The notes beneath the pieces are model-generated. The model saw only the letters and a list, made by a program, of their open reading frames with translations, was not told the origin of the DNA and did no database searches. Positions 5,647 through 62,449 of a stretch of DNA of 64,000 nt are shown in pieces. Source of the stretch: a virus. Lineage: Duplodnaviria > Caudoviricetes. The stretch lies in IMG/VR virus record IMGVR_UViG_3300033066_001917, positions 32,001 through 96,000 of that record; one strand, written 5' to 3'. Within the stretch, counting starts at the first letter, position 1, and the number at the start of each line of letters is the position of its first letter. The position numbers and the translations under genes were made by a program.

Positions 5647-7492
5647 AGTGACTTTGGTCAAGGAGCCGACCATCATCCCTATTTTCCAGATGGCAGTTAT
5701 CCCCGAAGGAATGGAAGACTTTTATGAGTGGTTGGGCACCTATCGCCCCGAATGCCTCCCGGATCCTCCAGAGGGACAAAAAGGTGGATGGATGGATCTT
5801 TTCCCCCATGGTGGGGTGGAGATGGACGACTTGGGTCAGGAGAGAGAGCTAACTGGGAACGAAATGCTCGTAGAGTTCGCGGGGAGAAAATGCTACGATG
5901 AACACACCGAAGTTCTGACTCAAAATGGATGGGTTCGGTTTCCCAATCTCCAGAAAGGGAGTGCAGTAGCCGTTTTCTCTCAGGAGAAAAACGAAATTGT
6001 TTTTGAAGTGCCCACCGAATATATCCAGAAACGGCACAAGGGTTCGATGTACTGCGTTGAATCCAGAGCATTCTCCATTCGAGTAACACCAGACCACGAT
6101 CTGTTTTGTCGCCGAAAAGGTGTGTGGGGATTTGCTCCGGCCGAGGAGCTCGTAGGGAAAAAGTATGGGGTTAGGAGAGCCGCAACTTATGAGGGATCTG
6201 GATTCCAGAGTTGCTGGCCAGTACCCAAGGGAAAAGAAAAAGAGTGGGCAACCTTCCTTGGGTTCTTCTTGTCCGAGGGTTCCATTGTTGATGGAAAAAA
6301 ATATAAAACAGGATCGAGGGTGATTATCTATCAGAAACATGATGCAAGTGACCCCATCCTCGAAGCAGCCAGGGCACTGGGATTGAAACCGACAGTCAAA
6401 ATTGACGGGAGAAACAACGTAGCCGCGATAACGATTGGAAACACGCAACTAGCTAACTTGCTAGCTGAGAAATGTGGCGTTGGAGCCACCGAAAAAAAGA
6501 TCCCAAGAGAGGTTTTTGAGTGGCCAGTTAACATCCGCGAGGCTCTTCTAGATGCCCTCATGGTGGGAGATGGGACAACCACGAATGGACATCGGGTTTA
6601 CACGACATGCTCGGAGAAACTTGCTACAGATGTCCAGCAATTGATCCTCATGCTGGGGCGACCGGGGTCCATCTCATTCAGCGACCATGGTATCCGAACC
6701 CCATACCCAACCAGCTTCAAAAGCAATCATCCCATTTACCGGGTCCGAGAGGGGAGCCAGGTTGTTGCCACCGTCAACAACAAGGACCAACATGATTGGA
6801 CCCAAGAAGAGGCAGACGAAATTGTCTACTGCGTGACAGTGCCAAATCGTATTTTAGTCGTCCGTCGCAATAGAAAAGTTTTCTTCTGCTCCAACTGCTA
6901 CGACTCTTTTGGGACCAAAGCTGGGAGGAGAACAAACGCCTCCTACATCGAGCACACCCAACAAGGGATCATTCCGCATAGGTCCATCAAGTACCATGCG
7001 AAAATGACATTTTTCATATCTGGCATCTCGTGGCGAGTCAGTCACGAATTCATACGGAATTATGTCGGTAGCGATAGGGACCAGGAAGGATCCCCCTCCG
7101 AGGAATCCACACGCTATACTTTCCACCCTGGTCATTTCGTGATCTCCCCCAGAGATATTGAGGAGGGTAACGAGGAGTGGTTCCGAGAAGCAATGCAAGC
7201 ATCGTATGATCGTTATTGCCAGTATGTAGATACCGAATGTCGTAAGTATCAGGAAAGAACTGGTGCAGAACCGAAAGGTATGGACCGGAAGAGGATCTAC
7301 GAATCAGCCGCTGGCTATATGCCAAAACAGGTTTCTACTTCACTGGTATGGACAACGAACCCGGAAGCTCTGAAAAAGCTGTTTCTAGAACGAACGGATA
7401 ATTCAACAGATCTGGAATTCCAAAGATTCGCCAAAAAATGGCAAAAACTGTGTTGCGCCAGATGGCCCAACCTATTCCCAAAGGTAGGATAA
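5639..7492 (+). CDS. thyX: FAD-dependent thymidylate synthase ThyX-like protein containing an intein
   Basis: exteins read LVEFAGRK|CYDSF...TNASYI.H...H.S..YHA..TFFISGIS..VSHEFIR...SEESTRY, collinear with actinobacterial-type ThyX. Confidence 0.82.
   Translation: MREVTLVKEPTIIPIFQMAVIPEGMEDFYEWLGTYRPECLPDPPEGQKGGWMDLFPHGGVEMDDLGQERELTGNEMLVEFAGRKCYDEHTEVLTQNGWVRFPNLQKGSAVAVFSQEKNEIVFEVPTEYIQKRHKGSMYCVESRAFSIRVTPDHDLFCRRKGVWGFAPAEELVGKKYGVRRAATYEGSGFQSCWPVPKGKEKEWATFLGFFLSEGSIVDGKKYKTGSRVIIYQKHDASDPILEAARALGLKPTVKIDGRNNVAAITIGNTQLANLLAEKCGVGATEKKIPREVFEWPVNIREALLDALMVGDGTTTNGHRVYTTCSEKLATDVQQLILMLGRPGSISFSDHGIRTPYPTSFKSNHPIYRVREGSQVVATVNNKDQHDWTQEEADEIVYCVTVPNRILVVRRNRKVFFCSNCYDSFGTKAGRRTNASYIEHTQQGIIPHRSIKYHAKMTFFISGISWRVSHEFIRNYVGSDRDQEGSPSEESTRYTFHPGHFVISPRDIEEGNEEWFREAMQASYDRYCQYVDTECRKYQERTGAEPKGMDRKRIYESAAGYMPKQVSTSLVWTTNPEALKKLFLERTDNSTDLEFQRFAKKWQKLCCARWPNLFPKVG
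5891..6895 (+). mobile_element. intein (335 aa) with LAGLIDADG homing endonuclease
   Basis: block A CYDEHTEVLT, block B VTPDH, LAGLIDADG motifs FLGFFLSEG and LLDALMVGDG, block F VYCVTV, C-terminal CSN followed by Cys+1. Confidence 0.92.
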
Positions 7493-7904: not shown

Positions 7905-8278
7905 GGGATCGACAGGTTTCGACAGAGGAGTAGATAGGAAAGAGTTGTAGCCGTTGATGCCGGGGACAACGTTAACACCCCTGGTGACTCACAAATGCGA
8001 ACGACAACGACGTTCCTGCTTTCGCCGCTGCTGCCTGAGAGTAGCCGCTAGAGCCCTGAAGGTGCCACCCCTGCCGATGGATGTCCCTTCTTGAAAAACA
8101 AAATTGGATAGGCCGAAAGACAGGCGACGTGTCTTCCGGAGTAGAACCAAACAGACGCAACGGTCGGATAGAACCTGCCCCTGGGTGCTTCTGGCAGTAG
8201 ACAAATCAGCGGCAAGGCTACAAACACTCTGAATTGACATGACTTTGGACCGGGGTTCGATTCCCCGCGATTCCACCA
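7905..8278 (+). ncRNA. ssrA: tmRNA, tag peptide ANDNDVPAFAAAA (7997-8038)
   Basis: 5' GGGATCG pairs with 3' CGATTCC-ACCA including a G3.U wobble; T-arm GGGGTTCGATTCCCC; tag ORF ends AA-TGA. Confidence 0.95.
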
Positions 8279-18967: not shown

Positions 18968-19342
18968 ATGCTTTTCGATGCAGAAACCGATCGATCCCTG
19001 AGAAGTGCCGGATACTGCCCACCCAATTTCCCAGCCTACTTTCTCCGGAGCGAAATTCAGGCCCTTCTCACAGGTACCTCCGTCTACTACGGGGGGCCAT
19101 GTGACCATTGCGGAGCTCCCGTCTATCGCTACAACCAGAAATGCTGCGATTCTGACTGCTCCACCATTCCAGATATCTCCCACCCACCGCCAGATTCTTT
19201 CAAGTCTACAACAATAAACCCCAACCCACTATCCGGACAGGGATTCGTGGCGTACCAACACCCTCCGATCTTGTCCGGCATCTTAAATGTGCCAGGGTTC
19301 TTCCTTTCTCATTCTCCGAATACCACTACCAAGTTGACTTGA
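18968..19342 (+). CDS. hypothetical protein
   Basis: ORF tiling; CDHC..CCDSDC. Confidence 0.5.
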   Translation: MLFDAETDRSLRSAGYCPPNFPAYFLRSEIQALLTGTSVYYGGPCDHCGAPVYRYNQKCCDSDCSTIPDISHPPPDSFKSTTINPNPLSGQGFVAYQHPPILSGILNVPGFFLSHSPNTTTKLT

Positions 19343-19551
19343 CACGTTGGCCGGATGAAGTATCCGTGTTTGCCCTGTGGGATGGGTTCTCTTTCTTTCG
19401 CCACGAGCCACGATTACTGTATTCCCTTAAGGCCATAACACCCCCGAACCAGCTAGACCTGTTCGACGTGGGTGACCTACCCGTAAAATACATCCATCCA
19501 GCGGAAGCCAAAGCGGCGGCATCGGGTGTGGCGCGCACTTTTGGGCTGTAG
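19339..19551 (+). CDS. hypothetical protein
   Basis: TTGA overlap. Confidence 0.45.
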   Translation: MTRWPDEVSVFALWDGFSFFRHEPRLLYSLKAITPPNQLDLFDVGDLPVKYIHPAEAKAAASGVARTFGL

Positions 19552-19862
19552 ACCTTTTAGAAATCGAACCCCAAAAAATTTCCAGCCCAGAATATCGGGA
19601 ATTTTTGATTTCCAAAGCTAAATGGAAATCGACCCCCAAGCCAGATATAGATAAAGACCGGGAAGTTGGACACCACGACGTGACCTGGAATCCCCTTTCC
19701 GGAACCCATTTCAAATCGGGATGTGTCATTTTCAATGCGGTTTCAATTCGCAAATTTTGACCCTGTTGGGACCCGGAAATAGTTTTCTATGCGGTTCTGG
19801 GGGTGGTTGGTGGTTCCATGTCTGGGTCCGCGGTCGTAAGCAAGTCATCATAGGAGTCGGGT

Positions 19863-20069
19863 ATGAAGTTCGATCCCACGAAGGCAACAAACGAAGAACT
19901 CTTGGACGAGCTTATTGCACAGGCCAAGCGTCAAGCGAGGTGTGAGTGTCGGGCTGGTCATTGTGAGCCGGGTGTCACCCATAACTACCGTGAGGCGGAT
20001 GAGGCTGCGGAGCGTGTCCTCACCCTGAAGAGTCAGATTCTTGGGGTCATGGAGGAGTATGGGCTATGA
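19863..20069 (+). CDS. hypothetical protein
   Basis: AGGAG RBS. Confidence 0.65.
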   Translation: MKFDPTKATNEELLDELIAQAKRQARCECRAGHCEPGVTHNYREADEAAERVLTLKSQILGVMEEYGL

Positions 20070-20416
20070 CGATTGGGGTCAAGGAGTCCCCCATCACCAT
20101 TTTTAGTAGTGGTGGGAAGCGCGACTACCCTACTGTGGAGTATGCCACGATGGCTGGGTGGGTGGATGAGTGGGATTTTGGTGGGTCTAGGGAGGAGGTT
20201 CAGGCTCTGGCCAACTCCTATCTATATCAGTTGATGGACGATCGGTCTCTCCTAGGGATGACGGGGCGGATTCTGGATCTCATTCGACTTAGGAACCTAC
20301 CTATGGGCCTGGGGGTACCGGCGGAAGTGGGGTGTATTGTGCGGGATAGTTCGGTGTGGATTGTGTATCGGAACCACCAAAACTCGGAAGGTATGGGAAA
20401 AGGCCATATGGCCTGA
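20066..20416 (+). CDS. hypothetical protein
   Basis: ATGA overlap; GGAGG RBS. Confidence 0.6.
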   Translation: MTIGVKESPITIFSSGGKRDYPTVEYATMAGWVDEWDFGGSREEVQALANSYLYQLMDDRSLLGMTGRILDLIRLRNLPMGLGVPAEVGCIVRDSSVWIVYRNHQNSEGMGKGHMA

Positions 20417-20438
20417 TTTGTCCGGGTCTATAATAGGG

Positions 20439-20466
20439 TTGGTTTCTGTGACCCATGGGTCGATAT
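20439..20466 (+). promoter_or_regulatory. putative phage promoter TTG-N19-CGATAT
   Basis: motif copy with a 19-nt spacer. Confidence 0.65.
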
Positions 20467-20488
20467 AAGGTTGAGAGGTAGGATTTCT

Positions 20489-20809
20489 ATGGGCGTTCTA
20501 GTGCGATTTTCTCCGGGTCTTCGTGACATGGCTCGGTGGCTTCTCCTTGATGGTCGGGTGGATGTTCCCTACCTGGAGGGGATCCTTCTTCGTGGGAGTA
20601 CCCACGATCTGATCACCCGGGCATGGGACAACCTGACGATGGAGGATCGGGAGCTGGCCCTTCGTCTTCTCCGGAAGCTTCCGGTGGATCGGTCGAAGTG
20701 CTCAAACCTTAAGGAAGCTGGGTTCGCGTGTGTCTATCTGGGTCCGGGTATGGAGCTCACCCACGACGCCTGGGATTACCTGCACCGTCGCTATCCGGTT
20801 AAGCCGTGA
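20489..20809 (+). CDS. hypothetical protein
   Basis: follows the promoter motif. Confidence 0.65.
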   Translation: MGVLVRFSPGLRDMARWLLLDGRVDVPYLEGILLRGSTHDLITRAWDNLTMEDRELALRLLRKLPVDRSKCSNLKEAGFACVYLGPGMELTHDAWDYLHRRYPVKP

Positions 20810-21012
20810 AAACCACCTACAGTGACCTTGAGCTGAGAGCCCTTGAGCTCTATGCCAGTCTCCTACCCCTCATCAAGAGGAAATTGGAAGCGAAAACCGC
20901 TGAAGACCGTCAAGCCATCACCCAAGCCATCCTTCACGAGATTGTCACTGCCCTCGAACATCCCCGGGTAGAGACCGACTCCCATGGAGACTCGCACGTT
21001 GCTTCTCGCTGA
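20806..21012 (+). CDS. hypothetical protein
   Basis: GTGA overlap. Confidence 0.6.
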   Translation: MKTTYSDLELRALELYASLLPLIKRKLEAKTAEDRQAITQAILHEIVTALEHPRVETDSHGDSHVASR

Positions 21013-21166
21013 GACTCTCGGCCCCATGTTTGCGGGTTACCCGGAGGGGTTTTTTCCCTTCGCCGAGATCCTCAATACTCTCATGGTGCGTGAGCGTGAG
21101 CTGGCCGTAGAGCAGTTTCAGCAGTAACGTCCAACCATTTTACGTGTGGAAAAGGTAACAATCAGT

Positions 21167-21312
21167 ATGAACATTCTCATTGGGATCAAAGAGACCCTCA
21201 AACTCCTCTGGCAGATTGCAGCCGCACCCATTGCGCTCCAGAAGTGGACCCATGGTACAGGGTGGGGGCCAGGGTTCGCCCGTATCGGTCAAGGTATCGG
21301 TCTCCTCGGTAG
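21167..21312 (+). pseudogene. 5' half of a phage gene split by the high-GC insert
   Basis: MNILIGIKETL...GIGLLG joins in frame to 23246-23366 when the insert is removed. Confidence 0.65.
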
Positions 21313-21401
21313 TGGCGTGATTCGCCTCGGGGTGGCGTGGTCTGGCTCCGACGCCTCGCAGGTGGCGTGATTTGAACGCCTCCGATGCAAATCACGCCAC
21401 C
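21312..21401. repeat. GTGGCGTG direct repeats plus a 14-bp inverted repeat
   Basis: GTGGCGTG at about 21312, 21332 and 21362; GGTGGCGTGATTTG...CAAATCACGCCACC. Confidence 0.75.
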
Positions 21402-21585
21402 CTCACCAAATGCCTACAGAGAAGGCGTTTGGCGCACGCTGGCGCACGGACAAATCGTCGTCGAGCGAGTGGCGCAGGCTCACGACGGCTCGCAGAACCG
21501 GCCTGCATGACGACCGAACGAGCGCGAACAGCGACCCCGCCGAGCCCGACCCGCTCGGAGCTCCTCCACGCGCGGCCGGGTTCCG

Positions 21586-21643
21586 AGGGGTGGCGGTCCG
21601 CCGCCCCATCGCCACCCCATCGCCATGGCGGACCGCCACCCCT
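21586..21643. repeat. 17-bp perfect inverted repeat (REP-like or terminator hairpin)
   Basis: AGGGGTGGCGGTCCGCC...GGCGGACCGCCACCCCT. Confidence 0.8.
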
Positions 21644-21733
21644 GCTTGTGATTTCGCATAGTTACGGTGGCTCGCGACGTGCTGTGCGGGGTGCCAAGCA
21701 CGTCGGAACCACCCACCATTTACTGGAGGCAAC

Positions 21734-22816
21734 ATGAAGGACACTGGCAGAATGGCATCAGATATGGACCCCGTCCCCGCCATCGACATCTTCGCGAGCG
21801 CGGGCGGCCTCACGCTGGGCTTCAAGGAAGCCGGTATCCAGACCGTCTGCGCGGTCGAGATCGAGAAGCATCGGGTCGCCACGTTCGCGCACCACACCCC
21901 AGGCGCGACCATCCTGAACGACGACGTCCAGCGCATCGACTTCTCGAAGTACACGGGGAAGGTCGAGCTGATCTACGGAGGCCCTCCGTGTCAGCCGTTT
22001 TCGTCGGGTGGGCAGCAACGTGCGGCGCGTGACGAACGCAACATGATCCCGGCATTTATCCGTGCCATCGCCACCGTTCGTCCCGCCGCGTTCTTCATGG
22101 AGAACGTGCCCGGACTGGTCACCGGGGAGCGCCGAGCCTATTTCCGCAAGATCCTCGCCGAGTACCGCGCTCTCGGGTTCTCCGTCGCGTGGAAGGTCAT
22201 CAACGCCGCCGACTACGGCGTGCCGCAGAAGCGCCGCCGTCTGTTCGTCGTCGGCATGCGCGGGCGCGAGTTCGCCTTTCCAGCGCCGAGCCACGGGCCG
22301 ACGGGACGCTTCCCGCACGTCGCCGTGCGCGACGTTTTGCCCTCGCACCAGATCGGCGAGCCGAACCTCTCGCGGGTGTTCTACGCCAAGACCCCTGACC
22401 TGCGACCGAGCCCCTTCGATGGGCACCTTTTCAATGGCGGCGGACGCGCGATCGACCGGAGCCAGCCGTGCCACACGATCCTCGCGTCGGCGGGGGGCAA
22501 CAAGACGCATTTCTTCGACGATGACGATTTGGTCGCGGAGTACCACCGACACCTGCGCGCAGGAGGCAAGCCCCGCACTGGCACATTGCCCGGCGCGCGC
22601 CGACTCACCGTCACGGAGTCGGCCATCATTCAGACCTTCCCGAAAGACATGGTGTTCATGGGTCCGCGGAGCGTGCAGTACCATCAGGTCGGAGACGCAG
22701 TACCGCCCAAACTGGCGGCGGTCATGGGGCGGGCGCTCGTGTGGCAAATGCGAGGAATCGCGGCTGGATCGCGCGAGGATTTCCCCGAGCCGATGCAGAG
22801 GGTACTGGCGCTGTGA
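21734..22816 (+). CDS. DNA (cytosine-5)-methyltransferase
   Basis: motif I IDIFASAGG, IV GGPPCQPFS, VI ENV, VIII QKRRR, IX-X RRLT...QTFP...VGDAVPP; GGAGG RBS. Confidence 0.96.
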   Translation: MKDTGRMASDMDPVPAIDIFASAGGLTLGFKEAGIQTVCAVEIEKHRVATFAHHTPGATILNDDVQRIDFSKYTGKVELIYGGPPCQPFSSGGQQRAARDERNMIPAFIRAIATVRPAAFFMENVPGLVTGERRAYFRKILAEYRALGFSVAWKVINAADYGVPQKRRRLFVVGMRGREFAFPAPSHGPTGRFPHVAVRDVLPSHQIGEPNLSRVFYAKTPDLRPSPFDGHLFNGGGRAIDRSQPCHTILASAGGNKTHFFDDDDLVAEYHRHLRAGGKPRTGTLPGARRLTVTESAIIQTFPKDMVFMGPRSVQYHQVGDAVPPKLAAVMGRALVWQMRGIAAGSREDFPEPMQRVLAL

Positions 22817-23259
22817 GCACCGCAGAGGACGCCGATGGTGGGCGCAACACCAACGTCGAGCAGGCGGTCGCCGCGGCGCTGGAGCGCATCGACGAGTTCG
22901 TTGCCGGGGATGAACTCAGCCCGCTCCCGGCGCCGCTCCGCGAGGCGTGCGACCGCCTGCTCGACAAGCAACGGGCCAGCGCGAGGACGGCGGGTCTCTT
23001 CTTCTCGTTCTACTGGTTGCTGGAACCTAAGTGGGACGGTGACAGCGTGCCCGTCGGAATTCGTGGGAAGTACGGGGACAAACTCCTGTCGGAGCAGTTG
23101 ACCCAACGCTCGATTACGCGGCACGACGCGATCACGGCCTTCGCAGAAAACCTCGGATGGAAGGGCAACGTACGGCAGTTCCGGTTGAGCCGGGACGAGC
23201 GGCTCAAAGACTTCATTGCCGCGCTGAAGAAGGCCGGGCCGAGCGGGAGGAGTTTTTAG
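22813..23259 (+). pseudogene. 3'-truncated gene coupled to the methyltransferase, probably the cognate restriction endonuclease
   Basis: GTGA overlap with the MTase; the frame runs off the insert end and stops within a few codons in phage DNA; endonuclease identity inferred from context only. Confidence 0.55.
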
Positions 23260-23366
23260 CCCTCTCCCCATTTATTGTGGATCGTTCTGCAGCTTTCTTC
23301 CAAGAGAATCCCGATCAGGCCCTGGACAATGCCAAGGCTCTCCTTGCCCAACTCGAAAGCATTTGA
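23246..23366 (+). pseudogene. 3' half of the split phage gene (EEFLALSPFIVD...LESI)
   Basis: phage-like composition; in frame with 21167-21312 after excision. Confidence 0.65.
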
Positions 23367-23367
23367 A

Positions 23368-24000
23368 ATGTCCCGCGAGAATCTATCTAAAGCTACGGGA
23401 GACCTAATCTCCTCCGCCGACAACTTCCTCAAGGGTCAGGGCACTATCGATGCGTTTGATGAAGCCGCTAAAGCCTATGAGGAGGCGGTCAGGGTTGAAC
23501 GTCTACGTGCTGATAACCTTACAGGATCAGAGCGTGGCAAAGTTTACGAGTACTTGCGATCTTGTAAACGAGAGACAAATAACTGGAAAGCCAAAGTGGA
23601 CAGGATCAGGGGGGTCCCGGCACCCCAAATCGTCAACCTCACAAGGGAGACGTTTACCCTAGCCAGTCCGGAGTGCATTGAAGCTTCCGGTTGCCCCTTT
23701 GACCCATTTGGATACTGCCTCAAAAGGGGTATGAAACTTCTGGTTGCGGGAACTATCCCCCCAAAGCTTCTTCCCAATCCTAGGGACTTGTCCGATATCC
23801 GGGTCGCCAATGAGGGGAGGGTTATCTCTATTCCCACATTCCCCATCTACCCCCCACACCCAACGGAAGGGATTCTCTATCTCGTACCAGAAGGGGTATT
23901 CATGACCGCGAACCGGCAAGACTTCATCACACCAGGGTCCCCGGTGTATAACGCTATGGGTGAGGTTATCGCCTATGCGAATATCCGGACAATGGCCTAG
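23368..24000 (+). CDS. hypothetical protein
   Basis: starts 1 nt after the upstream stop; C-terminus similar to 17574-17981. Confidence 0.7.
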   Translation: MSRENLSKATGDLISSADNFLKGQGTIDAFDEAAKAYEEAVRVERLRADNLTGSERGKVYEYLRSCKRETNNWKAKVDRIRGVPAPQIVNLTRETFTLASPECIEASGCPFDPFGYCLKRGMKLLVAGTIPPKLLPNPRDLSDIRVANEGRVISIPTFPIYPPHPTEGILYLVPEGVFMTANRQDFITPGSPVYNAMGEVIAYANIRTMA

Positions 24001-24005
24001 GGGGA

Positions 24006-24716
24006 TTATTTGGTGAGGGAGGTACGGATACGGGCCAGGGATGAGTCAACCTCCGAGGCGCTCATCCCTAATTCCAAAGCCATCTCTTTCCTGGTCTTCC
24101 CCAATTCTAAGCCCCCTACCAGACTCTCGATCCTTTCCCACCCCTGAGGGAAAAGTTCCCTTAGGATCTCCCTCCGCCCAAAGTCATCACTGCCTTCAGA
24201 CCCACTCACCTCACCCTCCACCACCATCCCATCCGTAGTCAAATCCTCGTGCAATGTCCTACGGCGATCTTTCCTAAGATAGTTCGACAGGACACACTTG
24301 ATGACGATATGGACATAGTGACCAAACGAGGACTTCGTTGCATCCCAAGGACAAGTCCCATTATCCCTAGCAAGTAGACCACGGTAAACTTCCTGAAGAA
24401 AATCCTCCGGGTCTATTCCCTGCTTCATCAGTGTCCCCGTAAAATTCCCAGCATAAAACAACTTGCGGACTTCATTCCCCCGTGCCGCAAGATCAATCCC
24501 CAAAGATCCCTTCACCCCACCGTCCCGCTTCAGTCGAACAGGGCCCAGACCCCGAAGGATAGTAGGGACATCTAGAGTTGGAACCCAACCAACCAACTTC
24601 ACCCCACATCCAATCCGAGGACTACCCCTCCGGATTACAACACGGCCACGATAAGGTGTAGGAGCATTCACTAACCAGGAATCCCACGGAAGCACGGTAG
24701 GGCTAATCTCAATCAT
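24006..24716 (-). CDS. phage-encoded RNA polymerase sigma-70 family factor (regions 2 and 4 only)
   Basis: region 2 IDPEDFLQEVYRGLL...WDATKSSFGHYV..V...LSNYLRK; region 4 GKTRKEMALELGMSASEV...LARIR. Confidence 0.82.
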   Translation of the reverse strand: MIEISPTVLPWDSWLVNAPTPYRGRVVIRRGSPRIGCGVKLVGWVPTLDVPTILRGLGPVRLKRDGGVKGSLGIDLAARGNEVRKLFYAGNFTGTLMKQGIDPEDFLQEVYRGLLARDNGTCPWDATKSSFGHYVHIVIKCVLSNYLRKDRRRTLHEDLTTDGMVVEGEVSGSEGSDDFGRREILRELFPQGWERIESLVGGLELGKTRKEMALELGMSASEVDSSLARIRTSLTK

Positions 24717-25330
24717 ATAACCTCGCAGTTGATTGTGTTACCCTTAACACAGATCACACCACCAACGCAACCCCATTCCCCAAATCAATTTCATTTTTTC
24801 GAAATCAAAATCAATGCGGGTTCAACTTTACGCGGCTCTTCGGCCCCGTAGCCCCGTAGCCCTGTTCCTGTCCATACCCTTCACCCGTATCCACGCTACC
24901 TACCCCCATGGTATCTACCACCCTTCCCCTACCCCCTCCAATCACCCCCTGCCAGGATGCATACCATTCCCGTCATTCTTACCTTTTCTAAACGGGACCT
25001 ATTACTGTCAACAATAACCACACCCCCCTTTCTCTGGCATTTCTCTGTTGGGGAGTGGGGGTTGATTTGATTGAATTTTACCGGGTTGATGCTAAACTTC
25101 CGTTGAACCCCTAGTGTTCACTGAACCCCAGGAAATGGTGGGTTTCAATTCCGGTGTAAAAGGGGGTACCGGATGGTGTTTAGGGGGTTAGAAGAATCAA
25201 GAATTGAGGGAATTGGACAGGGAGATTATTGTCCGGGGGGTTCAATTTGGGTGGTGGTGGGGTTGATTGGACACAGAGTTCCTTGGCTTCTTGACCCGTC
25301 TTGGGGTGTGGGCCCAAGCAGTTAGTTTGT

Positions 25331-26185
25331 TTACCAGGCATACCCCTTTGCTTCTTCGATGGTCATAAAGAAGTGGATTCCTTTGGTGCATTCCACGCGG
25401 ATATCGGGGTCATACTCCGGTTCTTTGACCCACTCGCCAACTTTGTAGGTGAAAGAACGAGTGAAATGAGAGAACAGAATCTCGTCAGATGTGGGGGAGT
25501 CGGAAACGATCCGCACAACTTTGGCTTTATCAGCTCTACATTTGCGTCCTATGAGGGAGCTTGTCCTTCTGGCTGACTTTGGTATGAGAAGCTCAACGAC
25601 AACGGGTTGGTGCGTGGCTGTGCGGACATTTTTGTAGGCGTGAAAATGCCCCGTTTCGGGCACGATCTGGAAGCTGGGTAGTTCGGCCCCGTCAATCCTG
25701 GCTCCCCTTAGGTTAGCTTTTTGAAAAATAGCCTCCTTCAGTTTTGCTCCCTCGAAATTGGTTTCATTGCAAGTAGCTCTGCTTAGGTTGGCTTGGTAGA
25801 GATCGGACTCGGTTAGGGTGGCCCTAGCTAGATCTGCGCTAGAGAGGTCCGCGTCGGAGATGTCCGCGTCGGAGATGTTCGACTTTCTAAGGATGGCCAT
25901 GACCAGGGTGGATTGGGTCAACTTTGCTCCTTGCAGGTTGGCTTCGAGCAAATTGGCCGCACCCATAAAGGCCCCTTGGAGCAAAGCATCCTGAAGGTTG
26001 CATTTCCACAGTTTTGCTTCCCCCGCGTCGGCTCCCCGTAGATCGGCCCGGCTAAGATTAGCCTCGGAAAAGTCCACACCACGGAGTTCTGCCCTGCTAA
26101 AATTAGCACCGGACAAATCCATCCCACGAAAGCTTTTTCCTCTCAGGTCTCTTCCCTGAAAGTTTTTAGGTTTGGTTGTTCCCAT
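25331..26185 (-). CDS. pentapeptide repeat protein with DUF5758-like C-terminal domain
   Basis: A(D/N)Lxx repeats; L.IP..A.R.S..GRKCRADKAKV...ECTKGIHFF. Confidence 0.9.
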   Translation of the reverse strand: MGTTKPKNFQGRDLRGKSFRGMDLSGANFSRAELRGVDFSEANLSRADLRGADAGEAKLWKCNLQDALLQGAFMGAANLLEANLQGAKLTQSTLVMAILRKSNISDADISDADLSSADLARATLTESDLYQANLSRATCNETNFEGAKLKEAIFQKANLRGARIDGAELPSFQIVPETGHFHAYKNVRTATHQPVVVELLIPKSARRTSSLIGRKCRADKAKVVRIVSDSPTSDEILFSHFTRSFTYKVGEWVKEPEYDPDIRVECTKGIHFFMTIEEAKGYAW

Positions 26186-62352: not shown

Positions 62353-62376
62353 ATGTCTCTCTCTTTCCTTGCGGAG

Positions 62377-62449
62377 CGTGGCCGATGGGAGTCGAACCCA
62401 CTAACACCTGGATTTAGAATCCGGGCCCTTGCCGTTCGGGCACGACCAC
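62377..62449 (-). tRNA. tRNA with CUA anticodon (amber suppressor)
   Basis: GTGGTCG/CGGCCAC acceptor stem, CCCG-AACGGCA-AGGG D-arm, CCGGA-TTCTAAA-TCCAG anticodon arm, GTGGG-TTCGACT-CCCAT T-arm, G73. Confidence 0.88.

What the first reader, a model, noticed from the sequence alone, without database searches (positions are those of the whole stretch)
21313..23245. High-GC restriction-modification fragment inserted into a phage gene: intact methylase, amputated partner
Seen: composition jumps to strongly GC-rich at about 21313 and back at about 23245. Deleting the 1933 bp joins GGT AG|G GAG GAG TTT and restores one 88-aa ORF (MNILIGIKETL...GIGLLG-R-EEFLALSPFIVD...LESI). There is only about 1 nt of junction ambiguity, and no target duplication, transposase or integrase. 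The cargo is a complete C5-MTase with its upstream region and the first ~144 codons of its coupled gene. Inference: a very recent illegitimate capture of DNA from a high-GC bacterium that gives protective methylation while leaving the putative nuclease broken, i.e. an orphan methylase being born and a pointer to the host. An assembly chimera or artificial insertion would look the same.
Basis: partly seen in the sequence, partly recalled or inferred. Interest (0 to 1): 0.82.

Follow-up and report, generated by a model that had tools for sequence, protein, structure and literature searches.

The report
Truncated restriction-modification transposon in a phage
A huge wastewater/river phage carries the left 1.9 kb of a bacterial jumping gene whose cargo is a restriction-modification system, so the phage keeps an intact DNA methylase but only a dead stub of the nuclease; it is a clean natural example of a known way for phages to gain protective methylases.

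Summary
The GC-rich block is real (GC 0.66 against 0.53) and is not an assembly or artificial chimera. Independent public assemblies from two studies bridge the junctions, and a third run holds the insert at 100% identity without the phage.

The "restored 88-aa gene" is a coincidence. A related phage contig with the empty site (L031) has two separate genes there, of 94 and 69 aa. The foreign DNA (21308/9-23236/46) replaced 219 bp of phage DNA.

The left junction lies exactly on the terminal inverted repeat of an IS1-family cargo transposon. I found 30+ further copies of its ends in high-GC metagenome contigs. Complete or partial copies carry different restriction-modification systems plus a DDE transposase. 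One mini-copy has an 8-bp target duplication.

The right junction is a 10-nt microhomology inside the nuclease gene.

The cargo is an intact Dcm-type C5 methylase and codons 1-144 of a ~379-aa nuclease. That nuclease folds like EcoT38I, and its catalytic core is lost here.

The closest named relatives of both genes are in Planctomycetota.

The phage has 58 GAGCTC sites (56 expected), while it avoids many other palindromes.

This scan has noted IS1/IS1595 restriction-modification transposons before on other DNA, one of them inside a phage. Verdict: a real new member of a known kind, of moderate interest.

The parts
21167..21307 (+). First 47 codons of a phage 94-aa small membrane-protein gene. 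It is cut here and now runs on into the insert as a 67-aa frame that ends at 21370.
   Evidence: Identical to the first 47 residues of P0172, the 94-aa gene at L031 5552-5836.
21308..21323 (+). Terminal inverted repeat (tip of the left end) of the IS1-family cargo transposon: GGTAGTGGCGTGATTC.
   Evidence: In L028, L043 and 30 metagenome loci, homology always starts exactly at GGTAG and the outside flanks all differ. The phage empty site shares only the G at 21308.
21308..21640 (+). Left-end module of the transposon, about 330 nt. It holds four copies of the GTGGCGTGAT motif (21311, 21331 and 21361 on +; 21390-21401 on -) and a perfect 14-nt hairpin at 21361-21401.
   Evidence: It is 72-77% identical to the left ends of L073, L080, L081, L087, L090, L091 and L099, which carry other cargo, and 96% identical to L028.
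21586..21643 (.). Perfect 17-nt inverted repeat upstream of the methylase gene; role unknown.
   Evidence: I3. It lies in the stretch shared by element left ends and by non-element methylase loci such as L036, whose homology starts at 21564.
21734..22816 (+). Intact Dcm-type C5 cytosine DNA methyltransferase, 360 aa. It is now an orphan in the phage.
   Evidence: PF00145 4e-60. TIGR00675. The closest relatives are also 360 aa, at 89-99% identity. GC3 is 0.83 against 0.57 in the neighbouring phage gene.
22813..23259 (+). Stub of the partner restriction endonuclease: 144 foreign codons plus 4 phage-derived codons, then TAG.
   Evidence: Full-length relatives are 355-385 aa and sit directly after the methylase. 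The model of P0121 has pLDDT 90.9 and its best PDB match is EcoT38I (7edb_A, E 1.3e-9). The nuclease core lies at about residues 195-320, so it is absent here.
23237..23246 (.). Right junction: 10-nt microhomology GGCCGAGCGG shared by the nuclease gene and the phage 69-aa gene.
   Evidence: Three-way print of window, L031 and partner homologues. The copy in run X2 stays identical up to 23246 and then runs on unlike.
23238..23366 (+). Last 42 codons and stop of a phage 69-aa gene that lost its first 27 codons and its start.
   Evidence: L031 5833-6042 encodes the whole 69-aa gene. Homology to the window resumes at L031 5913 = window 23237.

Best explanation
The block is the left 1.94 kb of an IS1-family cargo transposon (a 'transporter IS'). 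Its passenger is a Type II restriction-modification system: a C5 methylase followed by a nuclease of EcoT38I-like fold, weakly annotated as RE_SacI_N.

While the phage replicated in a high-GC host that carried the element, the transposase joined the element's left tip to phage DNA at 21307/21308, inside a small 94-aa gene. The other side was closed by a join at a 10-nt microhomology (GGCCGAGCGG). That join lies between codon ~144 of the nuclease gene and the next phage gene. It removed the rest of the nuclease gene, the transposase gene, the right end and 219 bp of phage DNA.

Either a whole element inserted first and was then trimmed (slightly favoured), or only the cut left end was captured in one step.

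The phage lineage now carries an orphan methylase that should protect its many unprotected target sites, plus a catalytically dead nuclease stub.

Shown: the anatomy, both junctions, the empty site, a bacterial copy and the transposon family. Inferred: the order of events, methylase activity and its specificity, and the host taxon.
For: (1) The junctions are real.
- In run X19, a 7567-nt contig covers 20000-21514 and an 18464-nt contig covers 22465-24500. Both have 0 differences, and depth is about 25 on flank and insert alike.
- In run X1, from another study, a 950-nt contig covers 22544-23493 with 0 differences. A second contig ends at 21317, 5 nt past the left junction.

(2) A bacterial copy exists. 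Run X2 covers only 21369-23246 at 100% identity, has no phage flanks, and runs on unlike beyond 23246.

(3) The empty site exists. L031 3462-5693 matches window 19107-21308 at 97.3%, and L031 5913-8249 matches window 23237-25651 at 94%. The 219 nt between them encode the end of a 94-aa gene and the start of a 69-aa gene.

(4) The left junction is a transposon tip.
- The mini-element L028 has GGTAGTGG.. and ..CCACTACC inverted ends flanked by the same 8 bp, CGCCTGCG.
- All 30 metagenome hits and one IMG/VR contig begin their homology at GGTAG, with unrelated flanks.

(5) The family is defined.
- L080 is a complete 4289-bp element. It holds a left end, a C5 methylase, an NgoMIV-type nuclease (PF09015 2e-104), and a conserved 1.63-kb right module.
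- That module holds a 320-aa DDE transposase, P0173. It scores PF03400 DDE_Tnp_IS1 at 26 bits (cutoff 24.1) and NF033558 transpos_IS1 at 1.9e-14, and its GC3 is 0.95.
- Other copies carry a XamI-type nuclease with an N6 methylase, Type IIG-like fusions, or other C5 methylases.

(6) The right junction shares GGCCGAGCGG.

(7) The partner is a nuclease. Its fold matches EcoT38I, and the core lies beyond residue 144.

(8) There is a plausible benefit. The 200-kb record has 58 GAGCTC sites against 56 expected, whereas ACCGGT (4/38), ACATGT (0/21), GCCGGC (0/21), CAGCTG (0/19) and AGGCCT (0/19) are purged.
Against: - No phage copy with a full-length element or its right end was found (one search showed none), so the two-step route is not shown.
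- The 8-bp target duplication rests on one mini-element. The L043/L054 copy has no clean duplication.
- The IS1 assignment rests on weak profile scores. The NCBIfam score of 54 is below the equivalog cutoff of 100.
- In X1 the left junction is bridged by only 5 nt.
- X19 may be the sample the record was assembled from.
- Methylase specificity is only guessed from the partner's fold and a weak precomputed RE_SacI_N label. My own hmmscan of the partner found nothing.
- The transposon tip was not found above chance in 401 Planctomycetota genomes, so the host taxon is unproven.
- L031 is mosaic: only 4.6 kb of it matches the window.
Confidence: 0.78

Rival explanations
1. One-step capture. A transposase-cut or strand-transferred left end of the element, on host DNA, was joined to a broken or replicating phage genome. 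The other side was closed by microhomology annealing. No full-length element was ever in the phage. This is a sub-case of the best explanation, and its odds are counted inside it.
For: Only the truncated form was seen in X19 and X1. No right-end/phage junction was found in IMG/VR. There is 1 nt of overlap at the left junction and 10 nt at the right.
Against: Loss of exactly 219 bp of phage DNA and of the whole right part is explained just as well by a later deletion. IS1-type elements normally insert both ends (established knowledge of the family).
Confidence: 0.3
2. Purely illegitimate double recombination with host DNA, with no transposase involved. The match of the left junction to the transposon tip is then chance or microhomology.
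For: The window has no transposase, right end or target duplication. The right junction is a plain microhomology join.
Against: The left junction falls within 1 nt of the exact terminus at which 30+ independent copies of the element end. For a random break in kilobases of donor DNA this is a chance of well under 1 in 100.
Confidence: 0.1
3. Clean 1933-bp insertion into a single 88-aa phage gene, as the finding states.
For: Deleting 21313-23245 gives an open 88-aa frame.
Against: The empty-site relative has a 94-aa gene and a separate 69-aa gene, with 219 nt that the window lacks. The 88-aa frame is a 1-in-3 in-frame accident.
Confidence: 0.02
4. Assembly chimera or artificial insertion.
For: An abrupt GC step with no duplication. 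The IMG/VR record is a metagenome assembly.
Against: Independent Logan assemblies of runs from two studies carry the junctions with 0 differences, at the same depth as the phage flanks. Only 1 nt (left) and 10 nt (right) are shared with the phage at the joins, too little for a 31-mer graph to join by mistake.
Confidence: 0.02

Closest known systems
Transporter insertion sequences (tIS) of the IS1 / IS1595 families (Siguier, Gagnevin & Chandler 2009, cited in PMC2853133; concept summarised in PMC9330008)
   Same: A single DDE transposase, short inverted ends beginning GGT.., an 8-bp target duplication, and passenger genes inside the element.
   Different: The copy in the window has lost its transposase and right end. 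The family has a conserved 330-nt left module and a 1.63-kb right module, with interchangeable restriction-modification cargo between them. Profile scores to IS1 are weak.
Transposon-like restriction-modification units with inverted repeats and 8-bp target duplication (Furuta, Abe & Kobayashi 2010, PMC2853133: Xanthomonas oryzae unit; Neisseria gonorrhoeae unit with a COG3677 transposase-like gene)
   Same: Restriction-modification genes bounded by terminal inverted repeats and an 8-bp duplication, with a transposase-like gene in the unit.
   Different: Those are single chromosomal cases found by genome comparison. Here many copies carry at least six cargo types, and one truncated copy sits in a phage with a bacterial copy and an empty site both on record.
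Orphan (solitary) DNA methyltransferases of phages, thought to derive from host restriction-modification systems (my own knowledge, e.g. Murphy et al. 2013; not read here)
   Same: A phage-borne methylase without a working cognate nuclease. The presumed role is self-protection from host restriction.
   Different: Here the stub of the nuclease gene, the vehicle (a transposon end) and both junctions are still visible, so the route of acquisition can be read.
EcoT38I restriction endonuclease (PDB 7edb/7e8r). It recognises GRGCY^C and SacI recognises GAGCT^C (both sites from my own knowledge). Pfam RE_SacI_N is the precomputed weak label on relatives.
   Same: The full-length partner model matches EcoT38I over its whole length (Foldseek E 1.3e-9, probability 1.0). 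The gene follows a C5 methylase and, in L007, precedes a Vsr gene.
   Different: About 10% sequence identity and TM only 0.41-0.44. Specificity was not tested. The window keeps only residues 1-144 of the helical N-terminal domain.
IS1-promoted adjacent deletions (classical genetics; my own knowledge)
   Same: An IS1-type element is associated with loss of neighbouring DNA.
   Different: In transposase-made deletions the breakpoint is at an element end and the element stays whole. Here the breakpoint lies inside the cargo at a microhomology and the transposase gene itself was lost.

Membership tests
C5 cytosine DNA methyltransferase (Dcm type, Pfam PF00145) | Full-length catalytic domain with the conserved motifs (FxGxG, PCQ, ENV, QxRxR, GN/DxVP) | tested here: met
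   PF00145 4e-60 in one stretch over 4-322 of 324 profile positions. The motifs FASAGG, PPCQPF, ENVPG, QKRRR and GDAVPP can be read in the translation. It has the same 360-aa length as its closest relatives.
C5 cytosine DNA methyltransferase (Dcm type, Pfam PF00145) | Methylation activity and target site | not testable with these tools
   Needs a methylome or an enzyme assay. GAGCTC or GRGCYC is only inferred from the partner's fold.
Complete Type II restriction-modification system | Cognate restriction endonuclease gene intact next to the methylase | tested here: not met
   Only 144 of about 379 codons remain. The PD-(D/E)XK-like core at about residues 195-320 is absent.
Complete Type II restriction-modification system | Partner is a restriction endonuclease | tested here: met
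   Model pLDDT is 90.9. The best PDB match is EcoT38I at E 1.3e-9, followed by weak MspJI, BsaWI and FokI hits. The M-R(-Vsr) gene order is conserved. My own Pfam, NCBIfam and PDB sequence searches were negative.
IS1-family transposon / transporter IS | Terminal inverted repeats at both ends | tested here: not met
   The window has only the left repeat, at 21308-21323, and no right copy. Both ends are present in L028, L080 and L043+L054. The window therefore holds a truncated copy, not a whole member.
IS1-family transposon / transporter IS | Short target-site duplication (8-9 bp) | tested here: inconclusive
   L028 has an 8-bp duplication, CGCCTGCG. L043/L054 has none. It cannot be assessed in the window because the right side is deleted.
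IS1-family transposon / transporter IS | IS1-type DDE transposase | tested here: inconclusive
   It is absent from the window and from the whole 200-kb record. In the complete element L080, P0173 scores PF03400 at 26 bits (cutoff 24.1) and NF033558 at 54 bits (cutoff 100). Candidate D67, D137 and E206 sit in ELDEVW, TTDGFK and VERSN. There was no hit to the IS1595 profile.
IS1-family transposon / transporter IS | Passenger genes inside the element | tested here: met
   C5 methylase + NgoMIV-type nuclease (L080). XamI-type nuclease + N6 methylase (L090). Type IIG-like fusions (L077, L085, L087, L099). Other C5 methylases (L043, L095)..
Phage orphan methyltransferase | Methylase in a phage genome without a functional cognate nuclease | tested here: met
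   The record is a phage: baseplate wedge, clamp loader, helicase and RNA ligase PHROGs, and IMG/VR virus record. The methylase is intact and the nuclease is truncated.

The most novel reading that the evidence does not exclude
The retained 144-codon nuclease stub may not be junk. It keeps the family's invariant N-terminal block (S56 to V120 of the alignment). It ends at a TAG that is in frame with the next phage gene, in a phage that encodes an amber-suppressor tRNA. It could therefore be made, alone or as a read-through fusion, and act as a dominant-negative subunit or DNA-site decoy against the host's full-length nuclease. That would be a second, protein-level anti-restriction function beside the methylase.
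Probability: 0.06. Interest if true: 0.75.

Novelty: new member of a known kind. Interest (0 to 1): 0.48.

Why it matters
Phage orphan methylases are common, but how they are acquired is usually erased. Here every step can still be read:
- the vehicle, a transposon that ferries restriction-modification systems;
- a bacterial copy that is 100% identical;
- the empty site in a related phage;
- the two different junction chemistries;
- the dead nuclease stub.

The finding also ties a huge uncultured wastewater/river phage to hosts that carry this transposon family. It shows that the family's passengers are interchangeable restriction-modification systems, and that some copies sit next to phage or prophage genes. 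Together this supports the view that defence genes and their antidotes travel on the same small mobile elements.

Tried and rejected
- **Phage GenBank collection:** blastn of the flank and of the insert found no match.
- **Neighbouring phage gene:** IMG/VR held no relative of it.
- **Exact methylase protein:** it is not on record in the contig index. The contig that run X2 continues into beyond 23246 could not be fetched.
- **Possible right end at 24752:** rejected on reading the sequence.
- **Tip pattern in IMG/VR:** 19 of 21 hits were chance.
- **Tip pattern in Planctomycetota genomes:** 5 methylase-bearing MAGs and 401 sampled genomes gave only chance-level one-mismatch hits, about equal to the reversed-pattern control. 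So the element's host genome was not identified among those searched.
- **Full-length insertion or another empty site in IMG/VR:** none found.
- **Partner nuclease by sequence:** Pfam, NCBIfam and PDB searches found nothing. Only the fold search worked.
- **Promoter and terminator scan of the insert:** nothing found.
- **Taxonomy from an element-flanking gene (L079):** it gave a viral RecT-like protein, not a host marker.
- **Runs with a share of about 0.38:** these hold the ~96-98% mini-element (L028 type), not the phage. They are no evidence for the phage's habitat.
- **Empty-site joint:** none was seen in the four runs laid. This is not evidence of absence.
Full report
**Setting**

The window is bases 32001-96000 of a 200,245-bp IMG/VR virus record that CheckV rates 38% complete, so it is a very large phage. 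PHROG matches confirm a phage: baseplate wedge, clamp loader, helicase, RNA ligase and a thymidylate-synthase-like protein. Earlier notes of this scan on other parts of the genome call it a huge wastewater/river phage with a suppressor tRNA.

**Observation**

- GC is 0.50-0.55 along the window but 0.62-0.72 between about 21300 and 23250.
- The block 21308-23246 has GC 0.66 against 0.53 and 0.54 in the 5-kb flanks.
- GC3 of the methylase gene is 0.83, against 0.57 for the next phage gene.
- Deleting 21313-23245 in silico gives an 88-aa open frame.
- The block holds an intact 360-aa Dcm-type C5 methylase at 21734-22816.
- Overlapping its stop is a gene start at GTG 22813 with 144 foreign codons.

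**Real or artefact**

I laid public Logan assemblies of four runs on 20000-24500.

- Run X19 has a 7567-nt contig over 20000-21514 and an 18464-nt contig over 22465-24500. Both have no differences, and depth is about 25 on flank and insert alike.
- Run X1 is a riverine metagenome from another study. A 950-nt contig covers 22544-23493 without a difference. A second contig ends at 21317, 5 nt beyond the left join.
- Run X2 is activated sludge. It covers only 21369-23246, at 100% identity, has nothing on the phage flanks, and runs on unlike beyond 23246.

So the phage-insert junctions exist outside the IMG/VR assembly, and the same DNA exists without the phage. A chimera or artificial insertion is very unlikely. 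X19 may be the source sample, and the X1 left bridge is short.

**The empty site**

A protein search with the truncated N-terminal frame found P0172, a 94-aa protein on an 8249-nt Logan contig, L031.

- L031 3462-5693 matches window 19107-21308 at 97.3%.
- L031 5913-8249 matches window 23237-25651 at 94%.
- The 219 nt between these stretches are absent from the window. They encode the hydrophobic tail of the 94-aa gene and the first 27 codons of a separate, overlapping 69-aa gene.

The window's foreign DNA therefore replaced 219 bp. L031 is otherwise mosaic relative to this phage, as is usual for regions of small accessory genes.

**The left junction is a transposon tip**

The closest methylase cluster is P0001, at 99% amino-acid identity. 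It lies on about 1.8-kb contigs (L028, L029) seen in many samples. L028 aligns to window 21308-22972 at 96.5%. It is bounded by inverted ends, GGTAGTGGAGTGATTC on the left and its complement on the right, and these are flanked by the same 8 bp, CGCCTGCG.

The window's homology starts at the same GGTAG. The empty site shares only the G at 21308 with it.

- A scan of IMG/VR for the tip found one true pair of ends, on a 148-kb high-GC contig around a different C5 methylase.
- A scan of the metagenome contigs gave 30 loci. All are true ends, in contigs of GC 0.61-0.75. Homology always begins at GGTAG and the outside flanks are unrelated.

**The family**

- L080 is a complete 4289-bp copy. It holds a left module of about 330 nt (75% identical to window 21308-21640), a C5 methylase, an NgoMIV-type nuclease (PF09015 2e-104), a small gene, and a 1.63-kb right module. 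That right module is 96-97% identical in L082, L083, L086, L087 and L094, and 93% over the 232 nt that L090 holds.
- By codon-position GC, the real gene in the right module is a 320-aa protein, P0173 (GC3 0.95).
- P0173 matches DDE_Tnp_IS1 (26 bits, cutoff 24.1) and NCBIfam transpos_IS1 (1.9e-14, below the equivalog cutoff).
- P0173 has more than 1200 representative relatives at E below 1e-30.
- Other copies carry a XamI-type nuclease with an N6 methylase (L090), ~890-aa Type IIG-like enzymes (L077, L085), ~1100-aa N6-methylase fusions (L087, L099) and other C5 methylases (L043, L095).

This is an IS1-family transporter IS whose passengers are restriction-modification systems. The window holds only its left module and part of the cargo. 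No transposase or right end is present in the window or the 200-kb record.

**The right junction**

The insert and the phage share GGCCGAGCGG at 23237-23246. Up to that point the reading frame follows the partner gene of relatives. One is P0169, which is 96% identical over the last 48 residues of the stub and runs on to the C-terminus of the family. This is a microhomology join inside the cargo, not a transposase product.

**The partner**

- Full-length relatives are 355-385 aa and always lie directly after the methylase. In L007 a Vsr gene follows.
- Sequence profiles gave nothing in my hands. The collection's precomputed label is a weak RE_SacI_N.
- An AlphaFold model built on 44 sequences has pLDDT 90.9: a helical N-terminal domain (to about residue 190) and an alpha/beta core at about 195-320.
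- Foldseek places the model with EcoT38I restriction endonuclease (E 1.3e-9, probability 1.0), with weak hits to MspJI, BsaWI and FokI.
- The near-invariant acidic residues (D233, E247) lie in the core, beyond codon 144, so the stub cannot cut DNA.
- The nuclease gene is also broken in two bacterial copies: by the element's own right end at codon ~53 in L028, and by an unrelated 155-nt MITE in L032. So loss of the nuclease with retention of the methylase recurs.

**Donor and host**

All named relatives of the methylase above 60% identity are Planctomycetota MAGs: Phycisphaerales 76%, then Isosphaeraceae, Gemmataceae and Gemmatales. The closest partner genes lie in the same loci. The transposon tip itself was not found above chance in 401 sampled genomes of that phylum, so the taxon is a lead, not a result. 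Transposition into phage DNA requires the phage to replicate in a cell that holds an active element. The X2-type organism is therefore the best host candidate.

**Benefit**

The 200-kb record strongly avoids many 6-bp palindromes:
- ACCGGT: 4 observed, 38 expected
- ACATGT: 0, 21
- GCCGGC (the NgoMIV site): 0, 21
- CAGCTG: 0, 19
- AGGCCT: 0, 19

GAGCTC is not avoided, at 58 observed and 56 expected. If the system is SacI- or EcoT38I-like in specificity (an inference), the phage was fully exposed to it. A cognate methylase would then be of immediate value.

**Mechanism**

The left junction was made at the transposon terminus, so it is a transposase product. The right junction was made by microhomology-mediated joining.

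I slightly favour two steps: insertion of a whole element into the 94-aa gene, then a deletion between the two GGCCGAGCGG copies. That deletion would remove the rest of the nuclease gene, the transposase, the right end, the target duplication and 219 bp of phage DNA.

A one-step capture of a cut left end is nearly as likely. Nothing found here separates the two.

**Comparison with what is known**

- Transposon-like restriction-modification units with inverted repeats and 8-bp duplications, one with a transposase-like gene, were described by Furuta et al. 2010 (PMC2853133).
- Passenger-carrying IS1/IS1595 elements are an established class (the Siguier et al. 2009 reference cited there; PMC9330008).
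- This scan has itself noted IS1- and IS1595-type restriction-modification transposons on other DNA, one intact in a phage.

The present case is a new member of that kind. Its value lies in the completeness of the record, not in a new principle.

Noticed in passing
window 62376-62449 (-) and 23257-23259: ARAGORN calls a tRNA with anticodon CTA (amber suppressor). The nuclease stub ends at TAG and is in the same frame as the next phage gene (23368-24000, which also ends at TAG). Read-through would therefore give one ~395-aa fusion.
   Followed up: partly
window 7905-8278 (+): A phage-encoded tmRNA gene with tag peptide ANDNDVPAFAAAA.
   Followed up: no
whole record G000 (200 kb): Extreme avoidance of several 6-bp palindromes (ACCGGT 4/38, ACATGT 0/21, GCCGGC 0/21, CAGCTG 0/19, AGGCCT 0/19, GCATGC 1/14.5, TTATAA 0/10), while GAGCTC is at expectation. 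This is a restriction-avoidance fingerprint that could help to find the host.
   Followed up: partly
L028 / L029 (Logan contigs; window-equivalent 21308-22972): A 1.76-kb transposase-less mini-element: both ends, the methylase and 53 codons of the nuclease. It is seen at depth 114 in one wastewater run and at a word share of about 0.38 in about 15 runs from 7 or more studies. It is a widespread MITE-like orphan-methylase cassette.
   Followed up: partly
L032 2389-2544: In a JGI contig (87% nt identity to the insert) the nuclease gene is split by an unrelated ~155-nt MITE with ~33-nt inverted ends. This is a third independent inactivation of this nuclease gene.
   Followed up: no
L043 5037 to L054 538 (IMGVR_UViG_3300033070_001349, 65456-68270): A 2.8-kb copy of the same element family carrying a different C5 methylase, in a 148-kb GC-0.70 viral contig. 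Its flanks show no clean target duplication.
   Followed up: partly
L079 852-1829 (-) and L101 8221-9144 (+): Element ends lie next to a viral RecT-like gene and a Mu-like gpT major head gene. So copies of this transposon family are often in or beside (pro)phages.
   Followed up: no
P0182-P0324 (relatives of transposase P0173): Most close representatives are 530-670 aa, with the transposase domain at the C-terminus behind a ~290-aa N-terminal extension of unknown nature.
   Followed up: no
L007 5830-7042: In this Planctomycetota MAG the homologous methylase is split into two overlapping frames (5830-6507 and 6470-7042). This is either a frameshift or a long-read sequencing error.
   Followed up: no
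L031 1-3461 versus window before 19107: The empty-site relative is mosaic. Upstream of window 19107 it carries unrelated small genes, some of them related to the first 1 kb of the phage record.
   Followed up: partly
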